A stretch of DNA of 64,000 nt. Source: Archaeoglobaceae archaeon (GTDB lineage Archaea; Halobacteriota; Archaeoglobi; Archaeoglobales; Archaeoglobaceae). Positions 9,549 through 57,750 of the stretch are shown piece by piece. The stretch covers positions 27,336-91,335 of the forward strand of contig WAPX01000053.1 of the NCBI GenBank assembly GCA_015520485.1. Reading direction: 5' to 3'. Both the position numbers and the translations under genes were made by a program. Every line of letters starts with the position of its first letter. The stretch's first letter is position 1. The notes under the pieces are model-generated. The model did no database searches. It was not told where the DNA came from and worked only from the letters and a program-made list of their open reading frames with translations.

Positions 9549-10103
9549 ATGAAAGTAAAAATTTTTATTTTGATTCTCTTAGCGCTTCTCGCCGGTTGTG
9601 TTCAGAGTGGTCAGGTAAAAGGTACAGGTAACGCCGGTAAAGCGAATAGAGCAAACACGTCCAGCAATACCAGCGAAAAACTCGAGGTTTTCTTCTACTA
9701 CGAAAACGGCTGTCCGAACTGCAGGATGATTGAACCGTACATGAAGCTGCTAAAAAAAGAGCTCGTAAACGTGGACTTTCACTTCTGCAACTGGGATGAC
9801 CACAAGAACTGGAGTGGCATGGAAAAGGAGGTTTATTCAGAGGTAAACCCCTACGGTTTTCCCGCTGTGGTCGTCGTTAACAAAACCAGAAAAAACGTTT
9901 TCATAGGCTGGAAGGACATAGGCCTAAACTTCACCGCATACCTAAAAAAGCTGGGCTTTCGAACGCCAAGGGTATTCTACAACAGAACGCCCTACAACGT
10001 CACGGAATGTCTGAACTGCCACGCAAAAAGACACATTAAACCTCCAAGCAGGTACAGCTGCACGTACTGCTGTCACATGTCCCGCATCAATTCGACGTCA
10101 TGA
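9549..10103 (+). CDS. thioredoxin-fold lipoprotein with C-terminal haem-binding motif(s)
   Basis: Lipobox-like signal LLALLAGC and a CPNC redox motif (aa 55-58). CLNCH (CxxCH, aa 154-158; nt 10008-10022) and CTYCCH (possible Cx3CH, aa 171-176). Confidence 0.6.
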   Translation: MKVKIFILILLALLAGCVQSGQVKGTGNAGKANRANTSSNTSEKLEVFFYYENGCPNCRMIEPYMKLLKKELVNVDFHFCNWDDHKNWSGMEKEVYSEVNPYGFPAVVVVNKTRKNVFIGWKDIGLNFTAYLKKLGFRTPRVFYNRTPYNVTECLNCHAKRHIKPPSRYSCTYCCHMSRINSTS

Positions 10104-10144: not shown

Positions 10145-10216
10145 GGGCTCGTAGCTCAGGGGCAGAGCGCCGCCTTCGCAAGGCGGAGGCCGCGGGTTCA
10201 AATCCCGCCGAGTCCA
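10145..10216 (+). tRNA. tRNA-Ala (anticodon CGC)
   Basis: Folded by hand as a cloverleaf: acceptor GGGCTCG/CGAGTCC with a G3:U70 pair, anticodon loop TTCGCAA, T-arm GCGGG-TTCAAAT-CCCGC, discriminator A. CCA is not encoded. Confidence 0.93.
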
Positions 10217-11489: not shown

Positions 11490-11606
11490 CCCGTACCTCC
11501 AGCCTCGATGCCTCGAACTTAGATGTATTTGCGCAACAAACCTTTAAAAGATTAGCGGTTTAAAGTGAAGACAGTAAAGATGTGCAGTAAAGAGGTGCTG
11601 GAAAGA

Positions 11607-11858
11607 ATGAAAATGAGAGCTACCGTCTGTGAGTTACAACAGGGGCTTTCTGGAAAAGAGGAATGATTCACTGAATGATTTAACCCGGCACGTTAGAGAT
11701 GAAAGAAGCGATCTGGTTGTTTTACCCGAAATGCCTGCCTATCCGTGGTTTGCCTCACTACCCCGGTTCAGCGAAGACGTCTGGCAGAAGCAGTAAAGGC
11801 TCACGATGAATTCGTCTCCATGTTCAGCAGCCTTCCAGCAGCGGTAATTTTTACATAG
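11607..11858 (+). pseudogene. fragmented N-terminal remnant of a carbon-nitrogen hydrolase (nitrilase superfamily)-like gene
   Basis: MKMRATVCELQ..., SDLVVLPEMPAYPWF and AVKAHDEFVSMFSSLPAAVIF lie in three different frames separated by stops. The remnant ends near the IS remnant. Confidence 0.4.
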
Positions 11859-12003
11859 ACCTGTTCAGAAGCTCGTTTTCCACTGGTAGTTTATGCTTCC
11901 GTAGTGAGAAACGAAGTAATTCACACTAAAGCCCAATGGCAAGCACAAGTCCAAGGATCAGGACAGCTACGATTGTTATAATAAGACCACTTTTAAGCTT
12001 TCC

Positions 12004-12470
12004 GGGGGTGTCAAGATAACCACTTATAGAAAGCCATAAAAACTAACCAGCTCTACATTCAAAAGAACTGTTAAGGAAACTCGTTCCAGAACCTGTTCGT
12101 TCTTTCTTTAAGCTTAAAGAAGAATCCCTCAACTGCATTTCTCTCACCAAACGTGTCTGTATCTCAAACCGAGCCTCTGTAAAGCCTGTACAAGATCTCC
12201 TATCAACAACCACTTCTGGCCTATTTTCGTGCTTAAGGGCTTCTCTCAAAACGTAAGCGTGGAAAGAACTACTTCCTTCTGAAGCCCATGGTTAAGTACT
12301 CCTTTATATCTACGCCTATAGCAGCCCATACAAAGATCTGTTTCTTCTCCAGCCTGATTTTTGTTTCATCTATCGCTATTAACCTTCTTTTCTTCTTTCC
12401 CGGTTGCTTTAAAGCTATGGGGTTTGTGGTAGTATAATTCTTACTGACATGGACTGATCTCCTCAAAAAG
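12004..12470 (-). mobile_element. decayed IS6-family-like insertion sequence remnant (broken transposase)
   Basis: Two out-of-frame ORF pieces: RLIAIDETKIRLEKKQIFVWAAIGVD (DDE region) and RPEVVVDRRSC...KKERTGS. An end-like sequence GGTGTCAAGATAACC lies at about 12006. Homologous at DNA level to 38137-38560. Confidence 0.6.
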
Positions 12471-12686
12471 AGATAGGAATTTACCCGTGGCCAACTGCTG
12501 GGATTTAAATTTATTTTTGAAGACGAAGACTATGAATTTAAACAATCTGCGTGGGAATATCGTTCTGCTAGGAATTACCGTTAGTGCGCTGGAGTGGATA
12601 TTTATTGAACACGTGGATGGCAATTTTGTCAGCAATAACACTGCAAGTTACGACAACGTTCGAAACATCCGATTCCTAAGTGCAGG

Positions 12687-13391
12687 CTAAAATGTAGCTT
12701 TCAGAATTGTGATAACAATACCGGCTGCTACGAGAAGTCTCGTGTCCATGCACATGTCCTCTATCTTCATCGTATACCTGAAATTTAGCATTTTTCTGTG
12801 CTGTCTGAATGTGCCCACGGCATTTCCATCCTGTGCCACTATTTTGTACGTTCTCGGCCAGATAATACTGTGCAAAAAGTATCGGGTGGACACAAGCCTG
12901 CCAGCCGTTTTTCCACCAGAAATTAGATCCCATTCATCTTTTACGAATATCAACCTGCTTCTCTGAACGACACTTCCAATTACCTCACCTGTTACTGCAT
13001 CGGTCACTGTATATTCTATGCGCGGCGGAATTATGAAGAAAATCAGGTTGAGAAGAAGCGAACGGTCTCCAAGATAGTAAAGAAGTTCTTTTCGACCCTT
13101 TGGCGAGCATAGCGTCAGAAGCTCCTCGGTTCGGTGCCTGCTCGTATAAACATGTATGGCTTTCCCATCCTTGTTCGTTCCCTCTCGCTCGGCGTAGAGA
13201 ACGGGATTGCCATCACCATCGAAAACTCCGACCGCTCCCGCGTACCTGTAGAAGATGTACTCGCTATGGTTGAAAGGGCCGCTTGCTGTCATGCCGGTAG
13301 ATCTGTTTTTTAGTGCATGTATAATTACTGCTGTCTGAATTGCTTTCATCTTTATAATGCCTTCGCAGTTTTCTGAAATCTTAAAATACAC
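12687..13391 (-). CDS. hypothetical protein, possibly scramblase/LURP-one (tubby-like fold) family
   Basis: 234 aa with a beta-rich repeat pattern. The C-terminal hydrophobic tail DTRLLVAAGIVITILKATF resembles scramblase family C-termini. Weak assignment. Confidence 0.35.
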   Translation of the reverse strand: MYFKISENCEGIIKMKAIQTAVIIHALKNRSTGMTASGPFNHSEYIFYRYAGAVGVFDGDGNPVLYAEREGTNKDGKAIHVYTSRHRTEELLTLCSPKGRKELLYYLGDRSLLLNLIFFIIPPRIEYTVTDAVTGEVIGSVVQRSRLIFVKDEWDLISGGKTAGRLVSTRYFLHSIIWPRTYKIVAQDGNAVGTFRQHRKMLNFRYTMKIEDMCMDTRLLVAAGIVITILKATF

Positions 13392-13669
13392 AGAATCTAG
13401 ATACTAAGATTTTACTTTTTCAATTTTTTGTCCGGCAAATACGGTTAAAATATTCTTCTCATAAGGATAAGAACATCTGGAAGTTTTCCCCTTTTCAGGA
13501 GCTCTTTTGAATGCGGAACTGGCTAAAAAGTTTTATAGATTTCCATAATCACCGGAAGTTGTTATCTTGGTTCTTTACTTCTTAGCAAAATCACCAAAAA
13601 CTCAAAACCTATCATTATCTATTCAAACCAGAAAAATTAAATTAAACAAGCAATAAACCTAAACATATC

Positions 13670-14359
13670 ATGGGAAACGCTGTAAAAATCGTACTACTGC
13701 TCATCACAGTAATTGCTGTTGGAACTCTCGTAATGCCACAGACAGCTTCGCTTTTCGCCGGACAGCACTGGTGGTACAACATAAGCGGTAACGGAAATCA
13801 GGTGCCGTGTCAGAAGTGCCACGCAGATGTGTACGAGGAACTAAAGTACAGCTATCATAAAAATCTGGGCTGTATATGTCATAGAGCAAACCTGAGCATA
13901 ACGTATGCTGAAGTTCAGGGAGGAAGTATAACGAACTACACTCCCGGAAAACAGGCTCATGCAGCAACAACAGTGGCATGCATGCTCTGCCACCAGATAA
14001 ACGCATCGCTCAACAGCTCGATGCCCGGCCCCTTCGCTGGAGCTTTTAACGTCACAGCCTTTGGTGCGACATCGAACTTCAGGTACTCCAACGCAACTTT
14101 TAACGGTTTATGTGCTGCGCACAACGCTTTCGTTGCTAATGCAATAAAGAACAACACGTTAAAGGACTCGACTGAAGCCTGCATAGCCTGTCACATGAAG
14201 GTCAACATCACCTTAAACTTCCATACCATGAGAGGAATAAATATAGTGACAAAGCACGTGATACTCGGATACTATGCTCTAACAGGTTTGAACGAATCCT
14301 ACATAAATGTTACATCTAACACATTCACGTATACAAACGTTACGGAGGTGAAACCTTGA
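13670..14359 (+). CDS. membrane-anchored multihaem c-type cytochrome (3 canonical CxxCH)
   Basis: N-terminal TM/signal helix. CQKCH, CMLCH and CIACH motifs, and about 12 N-x-S/T sequons in 229 aa. Confidence 0.85.
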   Translation: MGNAVKIVLLLITVIAVGTLVMPQTASLFAGQHWWYNISGNGNQVPCQKCHADVYEELKYSYHKNLGCICHRANLSITYAEVQGGSITNYTPGKQAHAATTVACMLCHQINASLNSSMPGPFAGAFNVTAFGATSNFRYSNATFNGLCAAHNAFVANAIKNNTLKDSTEACIACHMKVNITLNFHTMRGINIVTKHVILGYYALTGLNESYINVTSNTFTYTNVTEVKP

Positions 14360-15630
14360 CCTCCAAGATCTTGCCTGCAGTACTGATAGGAGTTGCCATA
14401 ACGGCGCTGTTTCTGCTGTACTCGCCACACTCTACATCACTCTTTGTGGGAGACCATACGATGTTCAACTTCTCCAACAACGCAACAACCGGGATAATAT
14501 ACGTTAACACCACGAGCGGTAAAACTGAGTACTGTAAGCTCTGCCACTACCACATCTGGGAGGAACTCTACTCTAACCCGAACGCACCTCACTACGACCT
14601 GAGCTGTGAAACCTGCCACAGGTTTAACGGTACCGGAGTTAAATTTGCTGTGATTAACACTTCAGCCCATCCCGGAATGCAGGCTCACGCTGCCTACGTT
14701 CCGAGCTGTCTGGACTGTCACGGAGGAAACGGAAGATATGTCAGGGATAGATTTGGAAAACTCGTTTACGCTCCTCCAGCAAAAGTGTTTAACGATACGA
14801 TTACCGTAAACCACCACAACGTCACTGTTATACCCTCCATTCCATACTTTGCTGCACACAAAGCCATGGTTGCTTACTTCGAGAAAGAAGGTGATGAAAA
14901 TCTTGCCTGCCTCATGTGTCACACAAACGTAACCAAGCACATGGTGTTCAGCTACCAGTACAACCTGAACTACACGCTGTACGATTGGATATTCACGTCA
15001 TTTGCACCAAACGGAACGAGGTACGCTAACATAACTGTAAACACTTCGGCGATTTTTAACGGAATGCACGAGTTTTTACCTGTAAAGGACATAAACTGCT
15101 CGTCCTGTCACAAGAACATATACCTCGGCCTTATAAACGGAACTCACGCTCCTATTTACTACGCTTGGAGATGGGGACCAGACAACTTGTGGAATAATCC
15201 GAGGTATCACGCTCTCGCAGAATACGGCTTAACTTTGAACACTTCATGGATTAACAACTCCTACTGCGACGAATGTCACAACCTGTACAGGTATGCAGAG
15301 GAAAATCCGACTGCAAATGCAACTTACGACCTGTATCCCGCTGCCATAGAGATAAATTCGACAAAAATCCACTGTGCGGAGAAAGTTTCCTGCCTCACGT
15401 GCCATGGCAGTGGTAAACCCTATGATCCATATCCTGTAACTGGTAATATAGGACACGAAGACATGCTAAACGAAACAGCCAACTACTCGAGAATGTACCA
15501 CGGTGACGTGTGCATGGGATGCCACGAAGCGGCAATACACGGCACTGCATCCTGTAGCAAGACATGTCATGCAGGATATGCCGGATTTGACATTCAGTCT
15601 GAGCCGAGTGGAGTGGATAGATGGATTTAA
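14356..15630 (+). CDS. multihaem c-type cytochrome (8 CxxCH + 1 Cx3CH)
   Basis: CKLCH, CETCH, CLDCH, CLMCH, CSSCH, CDECH, CLTCH and CMGCH, plus CSKTCH. N-terminal TM helix and about 20 N-x-S/T sequons in 424 aa. The TTG start overlaps the upstream stop. Confidence 0.9.
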   Translation: MTSKILPAVLIGVAITALFLLYSPHSTSLFVGDHTMFNFSNNATTGIIYVNTTSGKTEYCKLCHYHIWEELYSNPNAPHYDLSCETCHRFNGTGVKFAVINTSAHPGMQAHAAYVPSCLDCHGGNGRYVRDRFGKLVYAPPAKVFNDTITVNHHNVTVIPSIPYFAAHKAMVAYFEKEGDENLACLMCHTNVTKHMVFSYQYNLNYTLYDWIFTSFAPNGTRYANITVNTSAIFNGMHEFLPVKDINCSSCHKNIYLGLINGTHAPIYYAWRWGPDNLWNNPRYHALAEYGLTLNTSWINNSYCDECHNLYRYAEENPTANATYDLYPAAIEINSTKIHCAEKVSCLTCHGSGKPYDPYPVTGNIGHEDMLNETANYSRMYHGDVCMGCHEAAIHGTASCSKTCHAGYAGFDIQSEPSGVDRWI

Positions 15631-15660
15631 AATATACTAAAAATTTTAGGTTTTTCAAGA

Positions 15661-51980: not shown

Positions 51981-52892
51981 ATGATAGTGAAGATGAGAAA
52001 AAAAAGTAGCGGTCAGCTCAGCCTAGATGTGCTTGTCGGTCTTACAATATTCATGATTACGTTTATATTTATACTTCAATACTTACCTTCAGTTTTCGTT
52101 GTTCAGAGAAGTGACATATCTCTTAGTTCTGAAGCTTACAGAGTGGCAGCACTGCTTGCTGAAAGTCCCGGGTACTGGACTAACGGAACACATAACGGTA
52201 CTGACTGGGAAAACCACTGGAAGAACAGTGATGTGACCGTGAGAGCCGGTTTGTGCGGTAATAATCCCGGGGAGCTGCTAATATCCAAAATACTGAACTT
52301 TTCCGAGATGTACGAACAGAAGGGATACGACAGCATAGCGGAGATGTTTGGAATCGAGAACTACAACATATCACTGCAGTACCCGTACAGCAACTCATCC
52401 AACCCTGTTTATTCGTACTACAACGGAAAGCCCCTTCTTTCAATAGGAAAACCTGTACCCAGATATGGAGATGTTGTGAGGTATGAGAGAATTGTTTACT
52501 TTGATAATGCCTCTTTCTTTTACGACATTACGACTTCAAAACCGGGAGTAAATAAAACGAAAATTCTGAACGTTACAGCACCCATAGGTGTATTCACGTT
52601 TGTTGTTACAAAAACCGGAATCTGGGGTAACGGAACTGGAGGTAGCTGGATAATCGTAAAAATTAGTAGGGGTAATGGATGGGGCGGGCAAAAAATACTC
52701 AGAATTCCCGCAAATGGGGGTTACCTTGCTCCGGGAGTTTACAACTTGGCAGATCAGATATCTGAGAAAATTCCCGGGGTTGTTAATCTGACTGTCATCT
52801 CTCACAATCTGGCAGGCTATCTGATTTATTCGAGTGCCGGACAGTACATTGCCGGCAGGGTTGTAGCCAAGCTCGTCGTCTGTGTCTGGTGA
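51981..52892 (+). CDS. type IV pilin-like protein (class III signal peptide)
   Basis: N-terminus MRKKSSG|QLSLDVLVGLTIFMITFIFIL. The remainder is sequon-rich and beta-rich. Confidence 0.65.
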   Translation: MIVKMRKKSSGQLSLDVLVGLTIFMITFIFILQYLPSVFVVQRSDISLSSEAYRVAALLAESPGYWTNGTHNGTDWENHWKNSDVTVRAGLCGNNPGELLISKILNFSEMYEQKGYDSIAEMFGIENYNISLQYPYSNSSNPVYSYYNGKPLLSIGKPVPRYGDVVRYERIVYFDNASFFYDITTSKPGVNKTKILNVTAPIGVFTFVVTKTGIWGNGTGGSWIIVKISRGNGWGGQKILRIPANGGYLAPGVYNLADQISEKIPGVVNLTVISHNLAGYLIYSSAGQYIAGRVVAKLVVCVW

Positions 52893-53457
52893 GTGCGGAG
52901 GTGGTTCTTTGAGAGTGTTTACTGACATTAAATTGATTAAATCGGACTGTAAGGCTCAGGCATTTACGTTGGAAAGCATAGCGGCAGCTCTGCTGTTACT
53001 AATAGTGGCTTACTTTCTCTTTCGCTCCACTCTCATAATAGCACCTCAATCCACGCAGGTTGTGGATGTTCAGCTCAGCCAGTACGCAAAAGACACGCTC
53101 AGAATACTGGACAACCCGTCCTCTCCCACAAACGATACGCTGGAATACGTGGTGGAGCACTTGAATTCAAGTGATTTTAAAGAGGTCGTTGCACCCCTCG
53201 TAAACGCCACAAGAGAGTGCTTACCGAAAGATGTTGGATTTAATTTTGCTGTTTACTACTACAACTACACTACGAAAAAAGTTGAGAGATTAAACCTCAC
53301 GGACTTCGAACCATTTTCAAGCACAGTCACAGCTTCGAGGTACATAGTTCTGAACAGCAAGGACTTCGTTAGCGGTTCTCCATTCGTCAGCACAGCTCCT
53401 GAAAGTGGCAACTATCCTGTCGTTGTGGAGGTGAGGTTAACGCTATGGCGGATCTGA
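52882..53457 (+). CDS. type IV pilin-like protein (class III signal peptide)
   Basis: SDCKA|QAFTLESIAAALLLLIVAYFLF. A TTG/GTG start about 5-10 nt after GGAGGTGG (about 52906-52914) is more likely than the track start. Confidence 0.6.
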   Translation: MSGECGGGSLRVFTDIKLIKSDCKAQAFTLESIAAALLLLIVAYFLFRSTLIIAPQSTQVVDVQLSQYAKDTLRILDNPSSPTNDTLEYVVEHLNSSDFKEVVAPLVNATRECLPKDVGFNFAVYYYNYTTKKVERLNLTDFEPFSSTVTASRYIVLNSKDFVSGSPFVSTAPESGNYPVVVEVRLTLWRI

Positions 53458-53855
53458 TGAAGGATAACAGGGGTCAGATAATTATAATACTGACGCTGTT
53501 CATATCAGTCCTGCTTGCAGAGCTATCTCTTGTTTACACTCAGAACATACTTGCGGGAATGGAGAGCAGTACAGCTCAGCTGATGTTTCCCAAGTACCCC
53601 ATAGAAAACCTCAGAAGAATAGCGCTGGTTGACCTGAAAAACTACGCCAAGTCAAATCCATCTGGATTTCTTGAATACGCACAGAAGATTGACCAGCAGG
53701 TTGAGAGGCTCTATGCTGAACACGGCTGTTATGCGAGCATAGATATACTCGATGTAAAATATACCAGCTCAAATCAAATCTCTTGCTATACTGTTAAAAT
53801 AATATTTTTCAATTCAGGTGTAGATTATGAAGATACGGAGACGGTTGCTGTGTGA
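53445..53855 (+). CDS. type IV pilin-like protein (class III signal peptide)
   Basis: MKDNRG|QIIIILTLFISVLLAELSLVY. 136 aa. Confidence 0.6.
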   Translation: MADLMKDNRGQIIIILTLFISVLLAELSLVYTQNILAGMESSTAQLMFPKYPIENLRRIALVDLKNYAKSNPSGFLEYAQKIDQQVERLYAEHGCYASIDILDVKYTSSNQISCYTVKIIFFNSGVDYEDTETVAV

Positions 53856-56208
53856 TAGAAAAGGAGTGTCTGTACTTGTGGAATACATCCTGATAATCGG
53901 AGTACTTGCCCTGCTCATGACGTTCATAGTTCCCCAGCTGAACACTCTGATGTCCAGAATGCCAACTGCAAACGCCATGAAAAATCAGTTTCAGGACGTT
54001 GCAAGTGAAATCTCAGCTCAGATAACGGATATGCTTCTTGTTTCACCAAAAAACGGGATTGTTAAAAGCAGGGTTTACATGCCCGCTTCGGTGGGCAGGG
54101 AAACTTATGACGTTAAACTGGAGAACGGTAAGCTCGTGGTTAAATCAAATCTGTGGACACAGAAAGTTGATCTGGGTAAATCAACTTTGGGCTTCTTAAC
54201 CAAGGGGAGGACTTTCAGCAGCGAGTTAACTCACGAGATAGTTCTTAATTCGTCAATTCATATACTGCCCACTGCAGTGGCAATAGTTTACCCGACTGAG
54301 GCTGCTGTCGGAGAGAACGTAACTCTTGACATGACGCATTCGTACGGGGAAGGAACACTGTACTACAGATGGATAATAAGCAGCAGTAGCGGTACTATTA
54401 CCGTTTTACCACAAAACTCTTGGAAAGAATACAATCCAGTAAACCCCGAAACCGGGATAACGAGCTGGAAATTTAACGCTCCGGGTAACTACACGGTAAA
54501 GCTGGAAGTTAAAGATAGCCTTGGTTACGTAAGCTCGGATAGCGTTGAAGTTAACGTTACCTCAAATCCACAACCGAAACTCTACGTGAACAAGTACATC
54601 GTTCCTTCAACAATCACACCCGGGCAGAGCTCAACTATTAACATCTTTCTCTTTGGTAACGGAATAAACCAGACTTCACTCAACATCACGGTCATTCACA
54701 CAATAGATGCGTCTGGAAGCATGAACGAGGTCACACCGCTTTCAAGTACAACTGGAAATGTTACCTCTTCTCCGACAATTGTAAAAATAAACATAAACAA
54801 CAGCAATTACGACTACCTGATTTTTGTTACAACTAACGATTTCGACAGCTTTTACTGGGACTACGGTATAAGACCAGTATCCCTGTACGTTAAATCTCCA
54901 GATCAAAACTACTTCGTACAGGCCTCAGACGTCTGGTCAAATGGGAGTCAGGATGGTTACGGTTACTTAATCACCAATCCAAACACAGGCACGTGGTATT
55001 TAGCAATAAACGACCTGAACCCAAAGTCCGATGAAACCGTCAGTATTCAGGTTTACTCGGGACGTTACTTTATCAGGTGGTTTGAAATTTACGGCACGGT
55101 TTACAGCACTTCTGTTGTTGCACACAAAACTTATAGCAGTTATGGAATAAACGTTCCGGAAGAAGCAACGGAATTCGATGTACAGCTGATACCTGTTCAA
55201 ACTCCAGCAAGTCTCTATTTGTGGTTGAAAGATAACTCCACGGGCACATATTACATTAACTCCTCAAACTACTGGATAAACATAACCAGTCCATCAGCCG
55301 GCTATACGGCGTATGTTGTTCCAAGTATGCCTCCAGACACAACTACGGGATACTACCTCAATACGTACATACCAAAGATAGATGCTGCAAAAATTGCTGC
55401 CAAGACGTTTAACGGGATGCTGAGAAAGTACGACTACGTTGGTGTTGTAAAGTTCAACGACTATTACGCCACCTACGTTGTGAACCCGCCAACCAACGAT
55501 ACCGATTCGGTGAACAATTCCATAGATTTGATAACTGCTGATGGTTACACTCCAATGGCTTCAGGGTTGAGTTACGCAATAAACGAGCTCGACAGCTTTA
55601 ACAATAGCAAAAACAGCCCTGCAGTTGACGTTATAATTCTTCTCTCCGATGGAAACCCCAACATAGATCTGGCTGGTCACTACAACGTCAGACAGGCGAT
55701 TTCAGATACCATTAAGGAAGCAGAAATAGCGAAAAGCAAGGGCTACATAATCTACACGATAGGTTACGGAACTGATGCAAACGTAACTCTTCTACAACAA
55801 ATAGCGGAAATCACCGGGGGTAAGTTCTACTTTGCCGCCAGCGCTCAGGAACTGAAGAACATATACCAGTCCATAGCAAAAGATGTCTTCACAAAAGTAG
55901 CCGAAAACGTTACCGTTACGGATGTGATACCCTCCGGTGTTGAAGTACTTTCAACGACTGGAAACGTGACGAAAACTGCAAAGGGGACTGTTGTTTCTTG
56001 GACGCTTCCAGTTGTGAGAATTAACCAGAGCTGGACGGGAAGCATAACGATTACCACGACCAGAACTGGAGTTGTTCTGACAGATGTCGTTAACGTTTCA
56101 AACGTAACGTACTTTGACGTTGTGAACTCCAAACAGGTTACAGTTCCTTTGCCCGTTAAGGAGCTAAACGTTACCGTAACGAAGTCGGCGAGTTTTGAAC
56201 TTAAATGA
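53827..56208 (+). CDS. large pilin-like adhesin: class III signal + PKD-like domain + vWA domain (split by an insertion) + C-terminal beta-sandwich
   Basis: CDRKG|VSVLVEYILIIGVLALL. PKD-like WKFNAPGNYTVKLEVKDSLGYVSSDSVEVNV. vWA MIDAS residues DASGS (aa 294-298), GYT (T575) and LLSDG (D608). Confidence 0.75.
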   Translation: MKIRRRLLCDRKGVSVLVEYILIIGVLALLMTFIVPQLNTLMSRMPTANAMKNQFQDVASEISAQITDMLLVSPKNGIVKSRVYMPASVGRETYDVKLENGKLVVKSNLWTQKVDLGKSTLGFLTKGRTFSSELTHEIVLNSSIHILPTAVAIVYPTEAAVGENVTLDMTHSYGEGTLYYRWIISSSSGTITVLPQNSWKEYNPVNPETGITSWKFNAPGNYTVKLEVKDSLGYVSSDSVEVNVTSNPQPKLYVNKYIVPSTITPGQSSTINIFLFGNGINQTSLNITVIHTIDASGSMNEVTPLSSTTGNVTSSPTIVKININNSNYDYLIFVTTNDFDSFYWDYGIRPVSLYVKSPDQNYFVQASDVWSNGSQDGYGYLITNPNTGTWYLAINDLNPKSDETVSIQVYSGRYFIRWFEIYGTVYSTSVVAHKTYSSYGINVPEEATEFDVQLIPVQTPASLYLWLKDNSTGTYYINSSNYWINITSPSAGYTAYVVPSMPPDTTTGYYLNTYIPKIDAAKIAAKTFNGMLRKYDYVGVVKFNDYYATYVVNPPTNDTDSVNNSIDLITADGYTPMASGLSYAINELDSFNNSKNSPAVDVIILLSDGNPNIDLAGHYNVRQAISDTIKEAEIAKSKGYIIYTIGYGTDANVTLLQQIAEITGGKFYFAASAQELKNIYQSIAKDVFTKVAENVTVTDVIPSGVEVLSTTGNVTKTAKGTVVSWTLPVVRINQSWTGSITITTTRTGVVLTDVVNVSNVTYFDVVNSKQVTVPLPVKELNVTVTKSASFELK

Positions 56209-56920
56209 GGTGAGATGGGTGGGCTCCAGAGCAGTTTCAGAAGTCTTCGGAAACCTTTTGATTTTGATCATAATAGCTATAACCATCTCCGTCATGCTCT
56301 CCTACGGATATCCAGTAATAATGTCCGGGCAGGAAAAGGTAAAGATGAGAAACGTCATTTCGTCGATGGTGTTTGCGAAAGAGAAAATAGAAGTCGTTTC
56401 TTCAGACGTTGAACCTTGCACGACCCTGAAGTTTCCACCATCGGGCGGAGCTTTAAGCGTCTCGAAGAGCTGCACACTGTACGTTTACGTAAACGGTAAA
56501 GAATTGAGTTACGTTCCAGAAAAACCGGGAGAGCTGCTTTACACTTCAGGAAATAGGAAGGTAGCAGTGGAGCTGGGAGGGGTCTGGGAAAGCGAGGGCG
56601 GCAGGAGCTGGATGGTCTATCCCCCCCTCATAGAGGTTGCAGGGGGGAACATTGTCGTTACCATACCTGCTATCTCAGGTATAGGTTCTGCAGGAGGTTA
56701 CGGGATTGCGAACGTTCTTCTGAGTTATAACTCGACCGAAATACACGACTACGCAGATTCGTACTTAAAACTTGTAATACAGACTGAATTTCCACAGGCG
56801 TGGGAAAACTACCTGAAAGATAGTGGCTTTGCTGTAACTGCGAGTGGAGATACCGTTACTGCCACTGCAAGCGGAAACGTTACGCTGGTCGTGCACTGGA
56901 TAAACGTTTCAATTTACTGA
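56195..56920 (+). CDS. type IV pilin-like protein (archaeal pilin N-terminal, DUF1628-type)
   Basis: GSRA|VSEVFGNLLILIIIAITISVML. Confidence 0.65.
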   Translation: MNLNEVRWVGSRAVSEVFGNLLILIIIAITISVMLSYGYPVIMSGQEKVKMRNVISSMVFAKEKIEVVSSDVEPCTTLKFPPSGGALSVSKSCTLYVYVNGKELSYVPEKPGELLYTSGNRKVAVELGGVWESEGGRSWMVYPPLIEVAGGNIVVTIPAISGIGSAGGYGIANVLLSYNSTEIHDYADSYLKLVIQTEFPQAWENYLKDSGFAVTASGDTVTATASGNVTLVVHWINVSIY

Positions 56921-56922
56921 GA

Positions 56923-57750
56923 GTGATTGATATGACTGGCTCGAGTGCGATATACGGTAAAACAGAAGGTAAAACGGTCATTAAAGAGCTCAAAAACAGG
57001 AAAGGCGTTTCAAGCGTACTCGGCTATACCTTAATACTTGGAATAATCATACTCGTTTTATCGATAATTTTTGTGCACACATACGCAATGGTTAATCAGG
57101 CAAAAGAAAAAGTAAGATATGGCAGCATGGCTCAGGGTTTTGAAAAGATACAGAACACTGTAAACTACGTTGCTTACTCAGGAACGAGCGAGAGGTACGT
57201 AAGAATACTGCTGAACGAAGGGAGCTTAGCTGTTACGAAGGGGTGCAGGATAAACATATCCGTTTACAACACCACGAGTGCGACTCCCGTTTACAGTTGT
57301 TCCACTTATTCAGGGGCAGTAGACTACTCCTACGGGAACTACAGGATTGCTTTTGAGAACGGTGGCGTCTGGCTGAGCAGTCATGGAATGGCTACCATCG
57401 TTTCCTCGCCAAGAATATTTATATACAAGAAGATAGTAAACAATCAAACTATTTTCTTCATGACCCTTACTCTCATAAACGGTAAGGGTTCTGCTGGAGG
57501 TAACAGCTTTGCAAGCATCTTCGTTAAGTTTAACTCATCTCAGGTAAAAGTTTTTGGACCGGGTTACGTCAGCATAAACATAACTTCAGACTTTGCAAGA
57601 GCATGGTACGAGTACTTCAACAGCCTGAAAAACGGTCAGGGAAACGCAGCTTCCATACAGACAAGCCTCAGGGGAAACAACGTTTACGTGACGATACACT
57701 TTTCCGAAATGATACTGACTTCGTACAGGCTCAACGTGAGTGTGAGCTGA
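56923..57750 (+). CDS. type IV pilin-like protein (archaeal pilin N-terminal, DUF1628-type)
   Basis: KNRKG|VSSVLGYTLILGIIILVLSIIF. Confidence 0.65.
   Translation: MIDMTGSSAIYGKTEGKTVIKELKNRKGVSSVLGYTLILGIIILVLSIIFVHTYAMVNQAKEKVRYGSMAQGFEKIQNTVNYVAYSGTSERYVRILLNEGSLAVTKGCRINISVYNTTSATPVYSCSTYSGAVDYSYGNYRIAFENGGVWLSSHGMATIVSSPRIFIYKKIVNNQTIFFMTLTLINGKGSAGGNSFASIFVKFNSSQVKVFGPGYVSINITSDFARAWYEYFNSLKNGQGNAASIQTSLRGNNVYVTIHFSEMILTSYRLNVSVS

What the first reader, a model, noticed from the sequence alone, without database searches (positions are those of the whole stretch)
13670..15630. Tandem membrane-anchored multihaem cytochromes with extreme N-glycosylation sequon density and paralogous N-termini
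ORF1 (229 aa) has 3 CxxCH motifs. ORF2 (424 aa) has 8 CxxCH plus one CSKTCH (Cx3CH). The genes overlap (TTG start inside the TGA). Both start with a TM helix followed by a shared block (TASLFAGQHWWYNIS / STSLFVGDHTMFNFS) just before the first haem motif. I count about 12 and about 20 N-x-S/T sequons respectively, roughly one per 20 residues. That argues for an extracytoplasmic, heavily glycosylated location. Multihaem c-cytochromes are rare in archaea and are linked to extracellular electron transfer in Fe(III)-reducing Archaeoglobales. The pair lies about 1 kb from the complex I operon, with fibrillarin and TRAM genes in between.
Basis: partly seen in the sequence, partly recalled or inferred. 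Interest (0 to 1): 0.6.

Follow-up and report, generated by a model that had tools for sequence, protein, structure and literature searches.

The report
Archaeal nanowire-family cytochrome gene pair
These two overlapping genes of an uncultured hydrothermal-vent archaeon encode sugar-coated, multi-haem proteins of the family that builds the known Archaeoglobus "cytochrome nanowire"; new here are an undescribed short haem-binding motif and a partner protein made of two fused wire modules.

Summary
ORF1 (13670-14359, 229 aa) and ORF2 (14356-15630, 424 aa, TTG start inside the TGA stop) carry 3 and 8 CxxCH motifs, ORF2 also has CSKTCH, and they hold 12 and 20 N-x-S/T sequons against 3.5 and 4.7 expected.

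The interpretation needs revising. Both proteins belong to the AvECN family, the Archaeoglobus veneficus extracellular cytochrome nanowire (PDB 8E5G). ORF1 matches it at E=3.5e-44.

- ORF1 is a full tetrahaem module. Its second site reads C-I-C-H (CX1CH), and all eight axial His are kept.
- ORF2 is two such modules in tandem (profile E=1.2e-42 and 1.4e-12) plus a ninth haem.
- The hydrophobic N-termini look like cleaved Sec signal peptides rather than anchors.

The tetrahaem + nona/decahaem cassette is conserved, with a Shine-Dalgarno site inside the first gene's last codons. It occurs in at least 12 Archaeoglobaceae MAGs, A. veneficus and Geoglobus ahangari (twice), and is uncharacterised in all of them.

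CX1CH recurs in two distant clades, is under strong purifying selection (dN/dS about 0.04), and has no indel in four independent metagenomes. I found no description of it.

Most likely function: a secreted, glycosylated extracellular electron conduit. Filament formation is untested. Verdict: new variant of a known kind.

The parts
13633..13647 (+). A/T-rich TATA-like box (AAAAATTAAATTAAA) about 23-37 nt upstream of the ORF1 ATG. There is no Shine-Dalgarno site before ORF1, which suggests a leaderless or short-leader transcript starting the two-gene operon.
   Evidence: Read directly from the sequence. This is inference only; no RNA data were available.
13670..14359 (+). ORF1: 229-aa AvECN-family tetrahaem cytochrome c of the 'short / ...TEVK' subfamily.
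   Evidence: phmmer against PDB 8e5g_A gives E=3.5e-44 over residues 3-191. Foldseek's only significant hit is 8e5g, E=3.4e-8. Orthologues are 81-97% identical, with dN/dS of 0.03-0.07 wherever dS was not saturated.
13670..13750 (+). Probable Sec signal peptide of ORF1 (residues 1-27). It has an n-region MGNAVK, a 16-residue h-region, and a c-region P-Q-T-A-S, followed by the start of the mature protein, LFAGQH.
   Evidence: Sequence features and invariant P23/T25/F29/G31/H33. The homologous AvECN is an extracellular filament with 220 of 262 residues modelled. Cleavage is inferred, not shown.
13808..13822 (+). ORF1 haem site 1, CQKCH (residues 47-51).
13871..13882 (+). ORF1 haem site 2, the non-canonical C-I-C-H (CX1CH, residues 68-71). 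It lies in register with CGECH of AvECN and CEDCH of the sister clade.
   Evidence: Alignments. There is no indel or mismatch in contigs from four independent metagenome runs. The motif recurs in A. veneficus (CSCH) and in ANME-1/Syntrophoarchaeum homologues (C[DNLG]CH).
13979..13993 (+). ORF1 haem site 3, CMLCH (residues 104-108).
14180..14194 (+). ORF1 haem site 4, CIACH (residues 171-175).
14344..14351 (+). Shine-Dalgarno GGAGGTGA for ORF2, embedded in the T-E-V-K codons at the end of ORF1. The stop/start overlap TTGA follows 4 nt later.
   Evidence: Conserved in 16 of the 18 compared loci as GGAGGTGA, GGAGGT or GAGGTGA, with an ATGA overlap in 12 of them (GTGA in L006). The window has TTGA and L001 has CTGA. 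A. veneficus (L079) and L044 have separate stop and start codons instead.
14356..15630 (+). ORF2: 424-aa nonahaem cytochrome c. It consists of a signal peptide, AvECN-like module A (haems 1-4), module B (haems 5-8), a ninth haem (CSKTCH) and a conserved SEPSG tail.
   Evidence: phmmer against 8e5g_A gives E=3.4e-9. hhalign of the ORF1 family against the ORF2 family gives 100%, E=1.2e-42. ORF1 family against the module B alignment gives 97.7%, E=1.4e-12, covering all four haem motifs. There are 18 conserved His for 9 haems. AF2 pLDDT is 70, and Foldseek's only significant hit is 8e5g, E=2e-4.
14356..14439 (+). Probable Sec signal peptide of ORF2 (residues 1-28, ...LLYSPHSTS, followed by LFVGDH).
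   Evidence: Sequence, and alignment to the ORF1/AvECN N-termini. Cleavage is inferred.
15043..15627 (+). ORF2 module B plus terminal haem. It begins with T-S-A-I-F-N-G-M-H, an internal repeat of the mature N-terminal motif (S-L-F-x-G-x-H).
15553..15570 (+). ORF2 haem site 9, CSKTCH (CX3CH). The same column is CX2CH or CX3CH in relatives.
15631..15660 (+). 30-nt A/T-rich spacer with T-runs (TTTTAGGTTTTTC) between ORF2 and the fibrillarin gene. It could act as a terminator and/or the next promoter.
   Evidence: Sequence only. Inference.

Best explanation
The two genes form a bicistronic, translationally coupled cassette. It encodes two secreted, N-glycosylated, all-bis-His multihaem c-type cytochromes of the AvECN family, the archaeal extracellular cytochrome nanowire family.

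**ORF1** is one nanowire-type tetrahaem module. Its second haem is held by a non-canonical CX1CH site.

**ORF2** is two such modules fused head to tail, plus one extra C-terminal haem, so it behaves like a pre-assembled nine-haem stretch of wire.

**Proposed sequence of events.**
1. Both proteins are exported by Sec, and the signal peptides are removed.
2. Haem is attached by the archaeal Ccm system.
3. The proteins are glycosylated at conserved sequons, several of which lie directly after haem motifs.
4. The two associate outside the membrane into a continuous haem chain. This chain carries respiratory electrons from membrane quinol-oxidising cytochromes to acceptors beyond the cell surface, such as minerals or partner cells.

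**Shown here:** family membership, module architecture, conservation of every haem ligand, the conserved coupling of the two genes, and sequon enrichment and conservation.

**Inferred:** signal-peptide cleavage, haem occupancy of the CX1CH site, actual glycosylation, physical association of the two proteins, and whether the assembly is a long filament (ORF1 polymer with ORF2 as base, adaptor or cap, or a heteropolymer) or a short fixed-length conduit.
For: **Homology to the solved AvECN filament.**
- ORF1 matches it at E=3.5e-44 and the ORF2 N-terminal half at E=3.4e-9.
- It is the only significant Foldseek hit for both AF2 models.
- 8E5G is identified as the A. veneficus extracellular cytochrome nanowire in PMC12954529 and PMC11176372.

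**Module architecture of ORF2.**
- hhalign of the ORF1 family against the ORF2 N-module gives 100%, E=1.2e-42.
- Against module B it gives 97.7%, E=1.4e-12 over 133 columns, including all four haem motifs.

**Haem ligands.**
- ORF1 keeps 8 conserved His and ORF2 keeps 18, which fits 4 and 9 bis-His haems with no open coordination site.

**Conservation of the cassette.**
- A tetrahaem plus a 9/10-haem gene, with the Shine-Dalgarno inside the last codons of the first gene, occurs in at least 12 Archaeoglobaceae MAG loci, A. veneficus SNP6 and twice in tandem in G. ahangari. In most loci the start overlaps the stop by 4 nt (ATGA).
- ORF1 is under strong purifying selection: dN/dS is 0.03-0.07 in most measurable pairs, and 0.043 for window against L001.

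**Glycosylation signal.**
- Sequon counts exceed all 5000 shuffles.
- Sequon positions are conserved: ORF1 N37, N74, N111, N127, N141 and N213 in at least 24 of 29 relatives; ORF2 N190 and N299 in 40 of 44.

**Genomic context in the sister clade.**
- There the cassette lies 2-8 kb from CcmE, CcmF, CcmC and a nonahaem + cytochrome b pair. This gives both a maturation system and a plausible membrane electron donor.

**Literature.**
- Archaeoglobales use Ccm system I and carry multihaem cytochromes associated with metal respiration (PMC4429474, PMC4600277).
Against: - There is no expression, protein or filament evidence for this cassette in any organism. No RNA run was found.
- The only filament seen for the family is the AvECN paralogue. 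It belongs to a different subfamily (about 260-280 aa, different C-terminus) and is encoded at a different locus.
- The AF2 models are weak (pLDDT 57 and 70; TM to 8e5g 0.26-0.43), so no interface or haem geometry can be read from them.
- An earlier genome annotation scored the G. ahangari orthologue as 'TM = 1, no signal peptide', so an uncleaved anchor is not excluded.
- No Ccm gene or AglB lies in this window.
- CX1CH haem attachment has no precedent that I could find.
- The weak TTG start of ORF2 here, and CTG in the 97%-identical relative, argue against strict 1:1 stoichiometry.
Confidence: 0.65

Rival explanations
1. Both proteins stay tethered to the cytoplasmic membrane by an uncleaved N-terminal signal-anchor. 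They shuttle electrons within the pseudo-periplasm, between the membrane and the S-layer, without leaving the cell or polymerising.
For: Each protein has a single N-terminal hydrophobic helix. TMPred/TMHMM-style predictions in the G. ahangari genome paper list the orthologue GAH_00507 as 1 TM with no signal peptide. The conserved block right after the helix holds a haem ligand (H33), so the haem domain would sit at the membrane surface, close to quinol-oxidising partners.
Against: The h-region is only 16-18 residues. It ends in an invariant Pro followed by small residues at -3/-1, which is typical of Sec signal peptides. AvECN has the same N-terminus and is found as an extracellular filament sheared from cells, with only 220 of 262 residues in the model. 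Very dense, conserved glycosylation sequons fit an exposed surface or extracellular polymer.
Confidence: 0.2
2. ORF1 is a decaying paralogue. The one-residue deletion destroyed haem site 2, leaving a trihaem with a broken chain. In that case only ORF2, or another AvECN-type gene elsewhere in the genome, would carry the function.
For: The canonical motif count in ORF1 is 3. I found no literature precedent for haem attachment to CX1CH. A paralogue with a longer haem-1 to haem-2 spacer is present in the same metagenomes at similar depth.
Against: C68, C70, H71 and R72 are invariant, and the loop His (H63) is kept. dN/dS is 0.03-0.07. The same CX1CH occurs in cultured A. veneficus, and independently in a distant ANME-1/Syntrophoarchaeum clade, always at this site. 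Haem 2 sits mid-chain, so its loss would interrupt electron transfer. The site has no indel or mismatch in contigs from four independent runs.
Confidence: 0.1
3. The pair is a catalytic multihaem reductase or oxidase acting on a soluble substrate (for example nitrite, sulfite or hydroxylamine, NrfA/NrfH-like) rather than an electron wire.
For: There are weak sub-threshold NCBIfam hits to NrfH, NrfB and TorC, and the genes lie near respiratory genes.
Against: Those hits score 10-18 bits against cut-offs of 134-478. Every haem has two conserved His, so there is no open or Lys/Tyr-ligated active-site haem. The only structural and sequence relative is a nanowire subunit.
Confidence: 0.05

Closest known systems
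AvECN, the extracellular cytochrome nanowire of Archaeoglobus veneficus (UniProt F2KMU8 / AEA46122; PDB 8E5G; Baquero et al. 2023, Cell 186:2853, cited through PMC12954529 and PMC11176372)
   Same: The haem core is clearly homologous (ORF1 residues 3-191 against 2-205, E=3.5e-44). The N-terminal hydrophobic segment and the S-L-F-x-G-Q-H-x-W-Y-N-x-S block are the same. Order and spacing of the four haem sites, the bis-His ligand set and the high sequon content also match. ORF2 contains two copies of this module.
   Different: ORF1 lacks about 15-25 residues between haems 1 and 2 and about 30 residues at the C-terminus, ending ...NVTEVKP instead of the W-P...G-N-V tail. Haem site 2 is CX1CH instead of CGECH. 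ORF1 is always coupled to a nona/decahaem partner gene, whereas AvECN-type genes stand alone or precede a roughly 306-312-aa tetrahaem. A. veneficus carries its own orthologue of this cassette (242 aa + 445 aa) at a different locus. Polymerisation of ORF1 or ORF2 has not been observed.
Geoglobus ahangari GAH_00504-GAH_00507 and the A. veneficus 242-aa/445-aa pair (catalogued c-type cytochromes; PMC4600277 table 6)
   Same: These are the same cassette: an AvECN-like tetrahaem ending ...EV[KR] with the Shine-Dalgarno embedded, plus a 9/10-haem two-module protein ending ...SEPSG/SEPTG. The stop/start overlap is ATGA in G. ahangari, and there is a 10-nt gap in A. veneficus. The A. veneficus tetrahaem also has CX1CH (CSCH).
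   Different: Identity is 38-52% for the tetrahaem and 35-50% for the partner. G. ahangari has canonical CXXCH at site 2 and two tandem cassettes. None has been studied functionally, and they were annotated as cytochrome c7/c3 or hypothetical, with a predicted TM helix.
Geobacter sulfurreducens cytochrome filaments OmcS, OmcE and OmcZ, and Pyrobaculum PcECN (PDB 6EF8, 7TFS, 8D9M, 8E5F)
   Same: Functional analogy only. These are secreted multihaem c-type cytochromes whose closely packed bis-His haems form a continuous chain for long-range extracellular electron transfer.
   Different: None gave a significant sequence match (the only hit with E<=0.001 is 8e5g). They are homopolymers of single-module subunits, and none has a tandem-module partner or a CX1CH site.
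Non-canonical haem c attachment motifs: CX3CH and CX4CH (cytochromes c3), CX15CH (MccA), CXXCK (NrfA) and single-Cys (A/F)XXCH (euglenozoan mitochondria). Listed from my own knowledge.
   Same: In each case a variant spacing or ligand at one site of an otherwise canonical multihaem protein is conserved within a lineage. ORF2's last site is an ordinary CX3CH of this kind.
   Different: ORF1's spacing is shortened to one residue. A full-text search of the held library found no paper that describes CX1CH or CXCH as a haem c site. Whether one or both cysteines form thioethers is unknown.

Membership tests
AvECN family (archaeal extracellular cytochrome nanowire subunit, PDB 8E5G) | Significant sequence homology across the haem-binding core | tested here: met
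   ORF1 E=3.5e-44 (residues 3-191 against 2-205). ORF2 N-terminal half E=3.4e-9. Profile-profile E=1.2e-42 for ORF2 module A and 1.4e-12 for module B.
AvECN family (archaeal extracellular cytochrome nanowire subunit, PDB 8E5G) | Four c-type haem attachment sites in conserved order | tested here: inconclusive
   ORF1 has three CXXCH plus CX1CH in register with site 2. Haem occupancy of CX1CH cannot be decided from sequence. ORF2 modules A and B each have four canonical sites.
AvECN family (archaeal extracellular cytochrome nanowire subunit, PDB 8E5G) | Bis-His ligation of every haem (two conserved His per haem) | tested here: met
   ORF1 has H33, H51, H63, H71, H97, H108, H151 and H175. ORF2 has 17 invariant and 1 near-invariant His for 9 haems.
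AvECN family (archaeal extracellular cytochrome nanowire subunit, PDB 8E5G) | Similar three-dimensional fold | tested here: inconclusive
   8e5g is the only significant Foldseek hit for both models (E=3.4e-8 and 2e-4, prob 1.00). However, TM is 0.26-0.43 and the apo AF2 models are of low to moderate confidence (pLDDT 57 and 70).
AvECN family (archaeal extracellular cytochrome nanowire subunit, PDB 8E5G) | Secretion with removal of the N-terminal signal peptide | tested here: inconclusive
   The signal-peptide-like n/h/c architecture is conserved with AvECN. The 8e5g model has 220 of 262 residues. No predictor or protein data were available, and an older annotation of an orthologue predicted a TM anchor.
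AvECN family (archaeal extracellular cytochrome nanowire subunit, PDB 8E5G) | Polymerisation into a helical filament with a continuous haem chain | not testable with these tools
   This needs cryo-EM of sheared appendages or multimer modelling with haems.
System I (Ccm)-matured c-type cytochromes | Ccm genes present in the genome | tested here: inconclusive
   None is in the 64-kb window. CcmE, CcmF and CcmC lie 2-8 kb from the orthologous cassette in two sister-clade contigs. The literature reports that all sequenced Archaeoglobales contain cytochrome c genes and that Ccm (system I) is the only maturation system found in Archaea.
Archaeal N-glycoproteins (AglB-dependent) | N-x-S/T sequons enriched beyond composition and conserved in position | tested here: met
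   12 against 3.5 and 20 against 4.7 expected, with 0 of 5000 shuffles reaching the observed count. Positions are conserved across 29 and 44 relatives.
Archaeal N-glycoproteins (AglB-dependent) | Glycans actually attached | not testable with these tools
   This needs glycoproteomics or cryo-EM density.
NapC/NirT/NrfH membrane-anchored quinol dehydrogenases | Match to the family profile above the curated cut-off | tested here: not met
   NrfH TIGR03153 scores 13-18 bits against a cut-off of 134. TorC scores 17 bits against 478. Neither window protein matches Pfam Cytochrom_NNT.
Archaeosortase / PGF-CTERM or type IV pilin-like surface proteins | C-terminal sorting signal with a TM helix, or a class III signal peptide | tested here: not met
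   Both proteins end in short polar tails (...NVTEVKP...SEPSGVDRWI) without a hydrophobic segment. The N-termini lack a pilin-type cleavage motif before the helix.

The most novel reading that the evidence does not exclude
The cassette builds a two-component cytochrome wire unlike the known homopolymeric nanowires. ORF2, a natural covalent fusion of two wire modules plus a terminal haem, would nucleate or alternate with ORF1 subunits. ORF1's second haem would be covalently bound through a natural CX1CH motif, a haem c attachment site not previously described. That motif has arisen at least twice in archaea and must be accepted by the archaeal Ccm machinery.
Probability: 0.2. Interest if true: 0.8.

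Novelty: new variant of a known kind. Interest (0 to 1): 0.55.

Why it matters
Cytochrome nanowires are the current explanation for long-range extracellular electron transfer. Only five filament types have been solved, and all are homopolymers of single-module subunits. This locus raises three testable points.

1. **A second conserved form of the archaeal wire family.** It is a tetrahaem gene translationally coupled to a tandem-module nonahaem. It occurs in cultured, tractable strains (A. veneficus SNP6, G. ahangari 234T) and in ANME-related lineages.
2. **A clue to filament contacts.** The head-to-tail fusion of two modules in ORF2 gives a natural model of how subunits meet in the filament.
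3. **A possible new haem c motif.** CX1CH sits at a mid-chain haem, recurs in two distant clades and is under strong purifying selection. If haem is bound there, the known substrate range of cytochrome c maturation widens. Genome surveys that count only CXXCH would then systematically undercount haems in these archaea, including methane- and alkane-oxidising lineages.

If none of this holds, the locus is still a correctly classified AvECN-family pair.

Tried and rejected

- Pfam and NCBIfam gave only weak c3/c7/NrfH-type hits, so they did not help with classification.
- AF2 of ORF1 with 29 homologues was poor (pLDDT 57). ORF2 with 44 homologues was moderate (pLDDT 70). Foldseek TM scores are too low to read geometry.
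- The primary AvECN paper (Cell 2023; PMC10330847) is not held. I could not check the first modelled residue, glycan densities or the inter-subunit ligands.
- Literature searches for CXCH, CX1CH or CXnCH haem motifs found nothing relevant. The one 'CxCH motif' hit concerns Rieske proteins.
- Searches for AvECN paralogues, 'MmcX' and Arcve locus tags added only the accession AEA46122 and a note that haem number varies in the family.
- No RNA-seq run holds the locus.
- Pfam on the small ORFs in the gene-poor stretch 11.6-12.7 kb found nothing. I therefore dropped my suspicion of a transposase remnant.

**Readings considered and rejected**
- Assembly error at CICH: rejected and the orthologues.
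- A catalytic haem enzyme: rejected because every haem has two conserved His.
- A NapC/NrfH-type quinol dehydrogenase: scores are far below the cut-offs.
- Archaeosortase or pilin-type sorting: no such signals are present.
- A functional operon with the complex-I-like genes: the immediate neighbours differ between lineages, although a loose proximity recurs in L081.
Full report
**1. Observation**

The window has two overlapping ORFs on the plus strand. ORF1 is 13670-14359 (229 aa, ATG start). ORF2 is 14356-15630 (424 aa), and its TTG start lies inside the ORF1 TGA stop (CCTTGACC). A GGAGGTGA Shine-Dalgarno sits 4 nt upstream of that start, at 14344-14351.

- ORF1 has CxxCH at residues 47, 104 and 171.
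- ORF2 has CxxCH at 60, 84, 118, 185, 248, 304, 346 and 386, plus CSKTCH at 400.
- N-x-S/T sequons number exactly 12 and 20. Composition-preserving shuffles give 3.5 +/- 1.7 and 4.7 +/- 1.9, and none of 5000 reached the observed count.
- At 5.2 and 4.7 sequons per 100 aa these are the densest of the 67 ORFs in the window. Most of the other ORFs have about 1 or fewer, and other predicted surface proteins have 1.1-4.3.
- The stated neighbours are confirmed: fibrillarin, a TRAM gene, then a NuoI/NuoH/NuoD-like operon on the minus strand.

**2. What the proteins are**

Pfam and NCBIfam give only marginal c3/c7/NrfH-type hits. A sequence search of the PDB is decisive. ORF1 matches chain 8e5g_A at E=3.5e-44 (residues 3-191 against 2-205), and the N-terminal half of ORF2 matches the same chain at E=3.4e-9.

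8E5G is the cryo-EM structure of the Archaeoglobus veneficus extracellular cytochrome nanowire, AvECN (F2KMU8/AEA46122). It is a helical homopolymer of a tetrahaem, bis-His subunit (PMC12954529, PMC11176372 and bioRxiv 10.1101/2023.06.12.544705).

AlphaFold models built without haem are weak (pLDDT 57 for ORF1 and 70 for ORF2). Even so, 8e5g is the only significant Foldseek hit in the PDB for either model (E=3.4e-8 and 2e-4).

The family is small. An exhaustive HMMER scan of 1.84 billion representatives found 216 clusters at E<=1e-3. Members occur in Archaeoglobaceae, Geoglobus, ANME-1/Methanophagales, Syntrophoarchaeum and related lineages.

The window itself comes from an uncultured Archaeoglobaceae of hydrothermal vents. 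The closest contig is 97% identical at protein level, from an Archaeoglobaceae MAG. The DNA is present at high depth in four vent metagenome runs.

**3. ORF1 is a tetrahaem with a CX1CH site**

Where AvECN has C-G-E-C-H and the sister clade has C-E-D-C-H, ORF1 reads C68-I-C70-H71. This is a one-residue shortening. Several lines say it is real and functional.

- It is not an assembly artefact. Contigs from four independent runs cover codons 13871-13882 with no indel or mismatch.
- All close orthologues have G-C-[IVA]-C-H-R, and the complete genome of cultured A. veneficus SNP6 has G-C-S-C-H-R.
- C68, C70, H71 and R72 are invariant. A His is kept in the preceding loop (H63). Together with H33, H51, H97, H108, H151 and H175 this gives the eight ligands needed for four bis-His haems.
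- ORF1 is under strong purifying selection. dN/dS is 0.043 against the 97% relative and 0.03-0.07 in most of the other pairs where dS is not saturated.
- The same CX1CH, at the same site, occurs as C-[DNLG]-C-H in a separate ANME-1/Syntrophoarchaeum/Methanosarcinales clade. In a rough NJ tree the two CX1CH groups are separated by CX2CH clades that include AvECN, so the motif arose at least twice.

I know of CX3CH, CX4CH, CX15CH, CXXCK and single-Cys motifs, but of no documented CX1CH (this is from my own knowledge). Full-text searches of the held library found none. Whether haem is attached by one or two thioethers cannot be decided from sequence.

**4. ORF2 is two wire modules plus one haem**

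- The ORF1-family profile aligns to the N-terminal half of the ORF2-family profile with 100% probability, E=1.2e-42.
- The C-terminal half begins with T-S-A-I-F-N-G-M-H. This repeats the mature N-terminal motif S-L-F-x-G-x-H.
- An alignment of 18 such C-terminal halves matches the ORF1-family profile at 97.7%, E=1.4e-12, over 133 columns that include all four haem motifs.
- A ninth site follows, CX3CH here and CX2CH or CX3CH in relatives. After it comes a conserved ...S-E-P-S-G tail.
- Seventeen invariant and one near-invariant His match nine bis-His haems.

ORF2 is therefore a natural head-to-tail fusion of two nanowire-type modules with an extra terminal haem.

**5. The cassette is conserved**

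Every complete locus of the 'short' tetrahaem subfamily (228-243 aa, ending ...TEVK) is followed by a 392-445-aa nonahaem gene. In most loci the stop and start overlap as ATGA, and the Shine-Dalgarno GGAGGTGA is encoded by the T-E-V-K codons. The window has TTGA, and its 97% relative has CTGA.

The cassette is also found in:
- A. veneficus SNP6 (242 aa + 445 aa). It sits at about 0.62 Mb, next to other small multihaem and 4Fe-4S genes, and is distinct from the 262-aa AvECN gene.
- G. ahangari, twice in tandem (230+398 aa and 248+457 aa). These are preceded by two AvECN-like genes and an S26/S24 peptidase gene. By gene order, size and haem count they correspond to GAH_00504-00507. The genome paper lists those as cytochrome c7/c3 or hypothetical proteins with a predicted TM helix, and does not study them (PMC4600277).

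AvECN-type 'long' paralogues have other partners, or none. Immediate neighbours of the cassette vary. Fibrillarin is downstream only in the two nearest lineages that have data. In two sister-clade contigs the cassette lies 2-8 kb from a VWA protein, CcmE, a nonahaem + cytochrome b pair, CcmF and CcmC.

**6. Anchor or signal peptide**

The hydrophobic stretch is 16 residues in ORF1 and 18 in ORF2. It follows a short basic n-region and ends in an invariant Pro, then T-A-S or S-T-S. This gives small residues at -3 and -1, immediately before L-F-x-G-x-H.

AvECN has the same N-terminus, is recovered as an extracellular filament, and has 220 of its 262 encoded residues modelled. I therefore favour cleavage (about 0.7). 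This is inference only, and older predictor-based annotation called the orthologue TM-anchored.

**7. Glycosylation**

High sequon density is a family trait. The mean is 5.0 per 100 aa in the ORF1 family and 3.7 in the ORF2 family. Many positions are conserved: N37, N74, N111, N127, N141 and N213 in at least 24 of 29 relatives, and N190 and N299 in 40 of 44.

Several sequons follow haem motifs directly, for example CICHRANLS, CMLCHQINAS, CIACHMKVNIT and CLMCHTNVT. This would fit a glycan coat over the haem chain, but that reading is speculative. No glycan data could be accessed.

**8. Mechanism and rivals**

The best-supported reading is a secreted, glycosylated extracellular electron conduit built from AvECN-type modules: 4 haems in ORF1 and 4+4+1 in ORF2. 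The two proteins are probably associated, given the conserved translational coupling. Electrons would be supplied by membrane quinol-oxidising cytochromes.

I cannot say what form the assembly takes. ORF1 might polymerise with ORF2 as base, adaptor or cap. The two might form a heteropolymer. Or they might make a short 13-haem bridge. I put filament formation at about 0.35.

Rivals are an uncleaved membrane-anchored carrier (0.2), a decayed trihaem paralogue (0.1) and a catalytic enzyme (0.05). The evidence for and against each is given in the Rival explanations section.

**9. Novelty and score**

The kind is known. AvECN homologues are reported as widespread, and the family is already noted to vary in haem number (bioRxiv 10.1101/2025.05.29.656830). 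Within the literature I could search, two things are not described: the conserved tetrahaem + tandem-module nonahaem cassette, and the recurrent CX1CH site.

I rate this a new variant of a known kind, with interest 0.55.

Noticed in passing
window 9549-10103 (+): A 184-aa predicted lipoprotein (LLAGC lipobox). It has a sub-threshold thioredoxin-like match containing a CPNC motif, a C-terminal CLNCH plus CTYCCH, and 8 sequons (4.3 per 100 aa). It might be an extracytoplasmic thiol-disulfide oxidoreductase that itself carries a haem c site, 3.5 kb upstream of the cytochrome pair.
   Followed up: partly
window 13719-13840 and 13942-13965, as seen in runs X1-X4: Contigs of a paralogue in the same vent metagenomes, at similar depth, match this N-terminal and haem-1 coding DNA with only a few mismatches. 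They then carry 128 nt where ORF1 has 101. This fits an AvECN-type 'long' paralogue in the same or a co-occurring genome, possibly homogenised by gene conversion.
   Followed up: partly
L081 13439-17946 and L082 14945-19564 (sister-clade contigs): A cluster of CcmE, a 340-aa nonahaem cytochrome, cytochrome b (Ni_hydr_CYTB), CcmF and CcmC, plus a 712-aa VWA protein, lies just downstream of the orthologous cassette. It is a candidate membrane electron-input module and maturation system. L081 also has Nuo/Fqo antiporter-like genes about 6 kb upstream.
   Followed up: partly
L083 2079-10094 (G. ahangari CP011267): One cluster holds two AvECN-like tetrahaem genes, two tandem tetrahaem + 9/10-haem cassettes, and an S26/S24-family peptidase gene. 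The peptidase could be the processing enzyme for these conserved N-termini.
   Followed up: no
L001 near 1665 against window 14356: The 97%-identical relative has CTG where the window has the TTG start of ORF2, and most relatives have ATG. This lineage seems to be weakening ORF2 translation initiation.
   Followed up: partly
window 51981-57750 (+): A six-gene cluster of archaeal type IV pilin-like proteins (DUF7287, DUF7288, DUF7266, DUF7289, Pilin_N). It includes a 793-aa VWA/PKD protein with 22 sequons.
   Followed up: partly
window 11490-12690: A stretch of about 1.2 kb between the PadR-like gene and a 234-aa ORF without Pfam hits. It contains only short ORFs with no Pfam or Rfam match. Synteny with relatives breaks upstream of the cytochrome pair.
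   Followed up: partly
L046, L047, L050-L052, L054, L059, L072 (ANME-1 / Syntrophoarchaeum loci): CX1CH-type tetrahaem genes there are followed by a 233-299-aa paralogue with five CX2-3CH motifs (six in L059), often in arrays of three or more family genes. Tandem sets of family members appear to be the rule.
   Followed up: partly
window 10145-10216 (+): A single tRNA gene (Rfam RF00005, 71 bits). It is the only Rfam match in the window.
   Followed up: no
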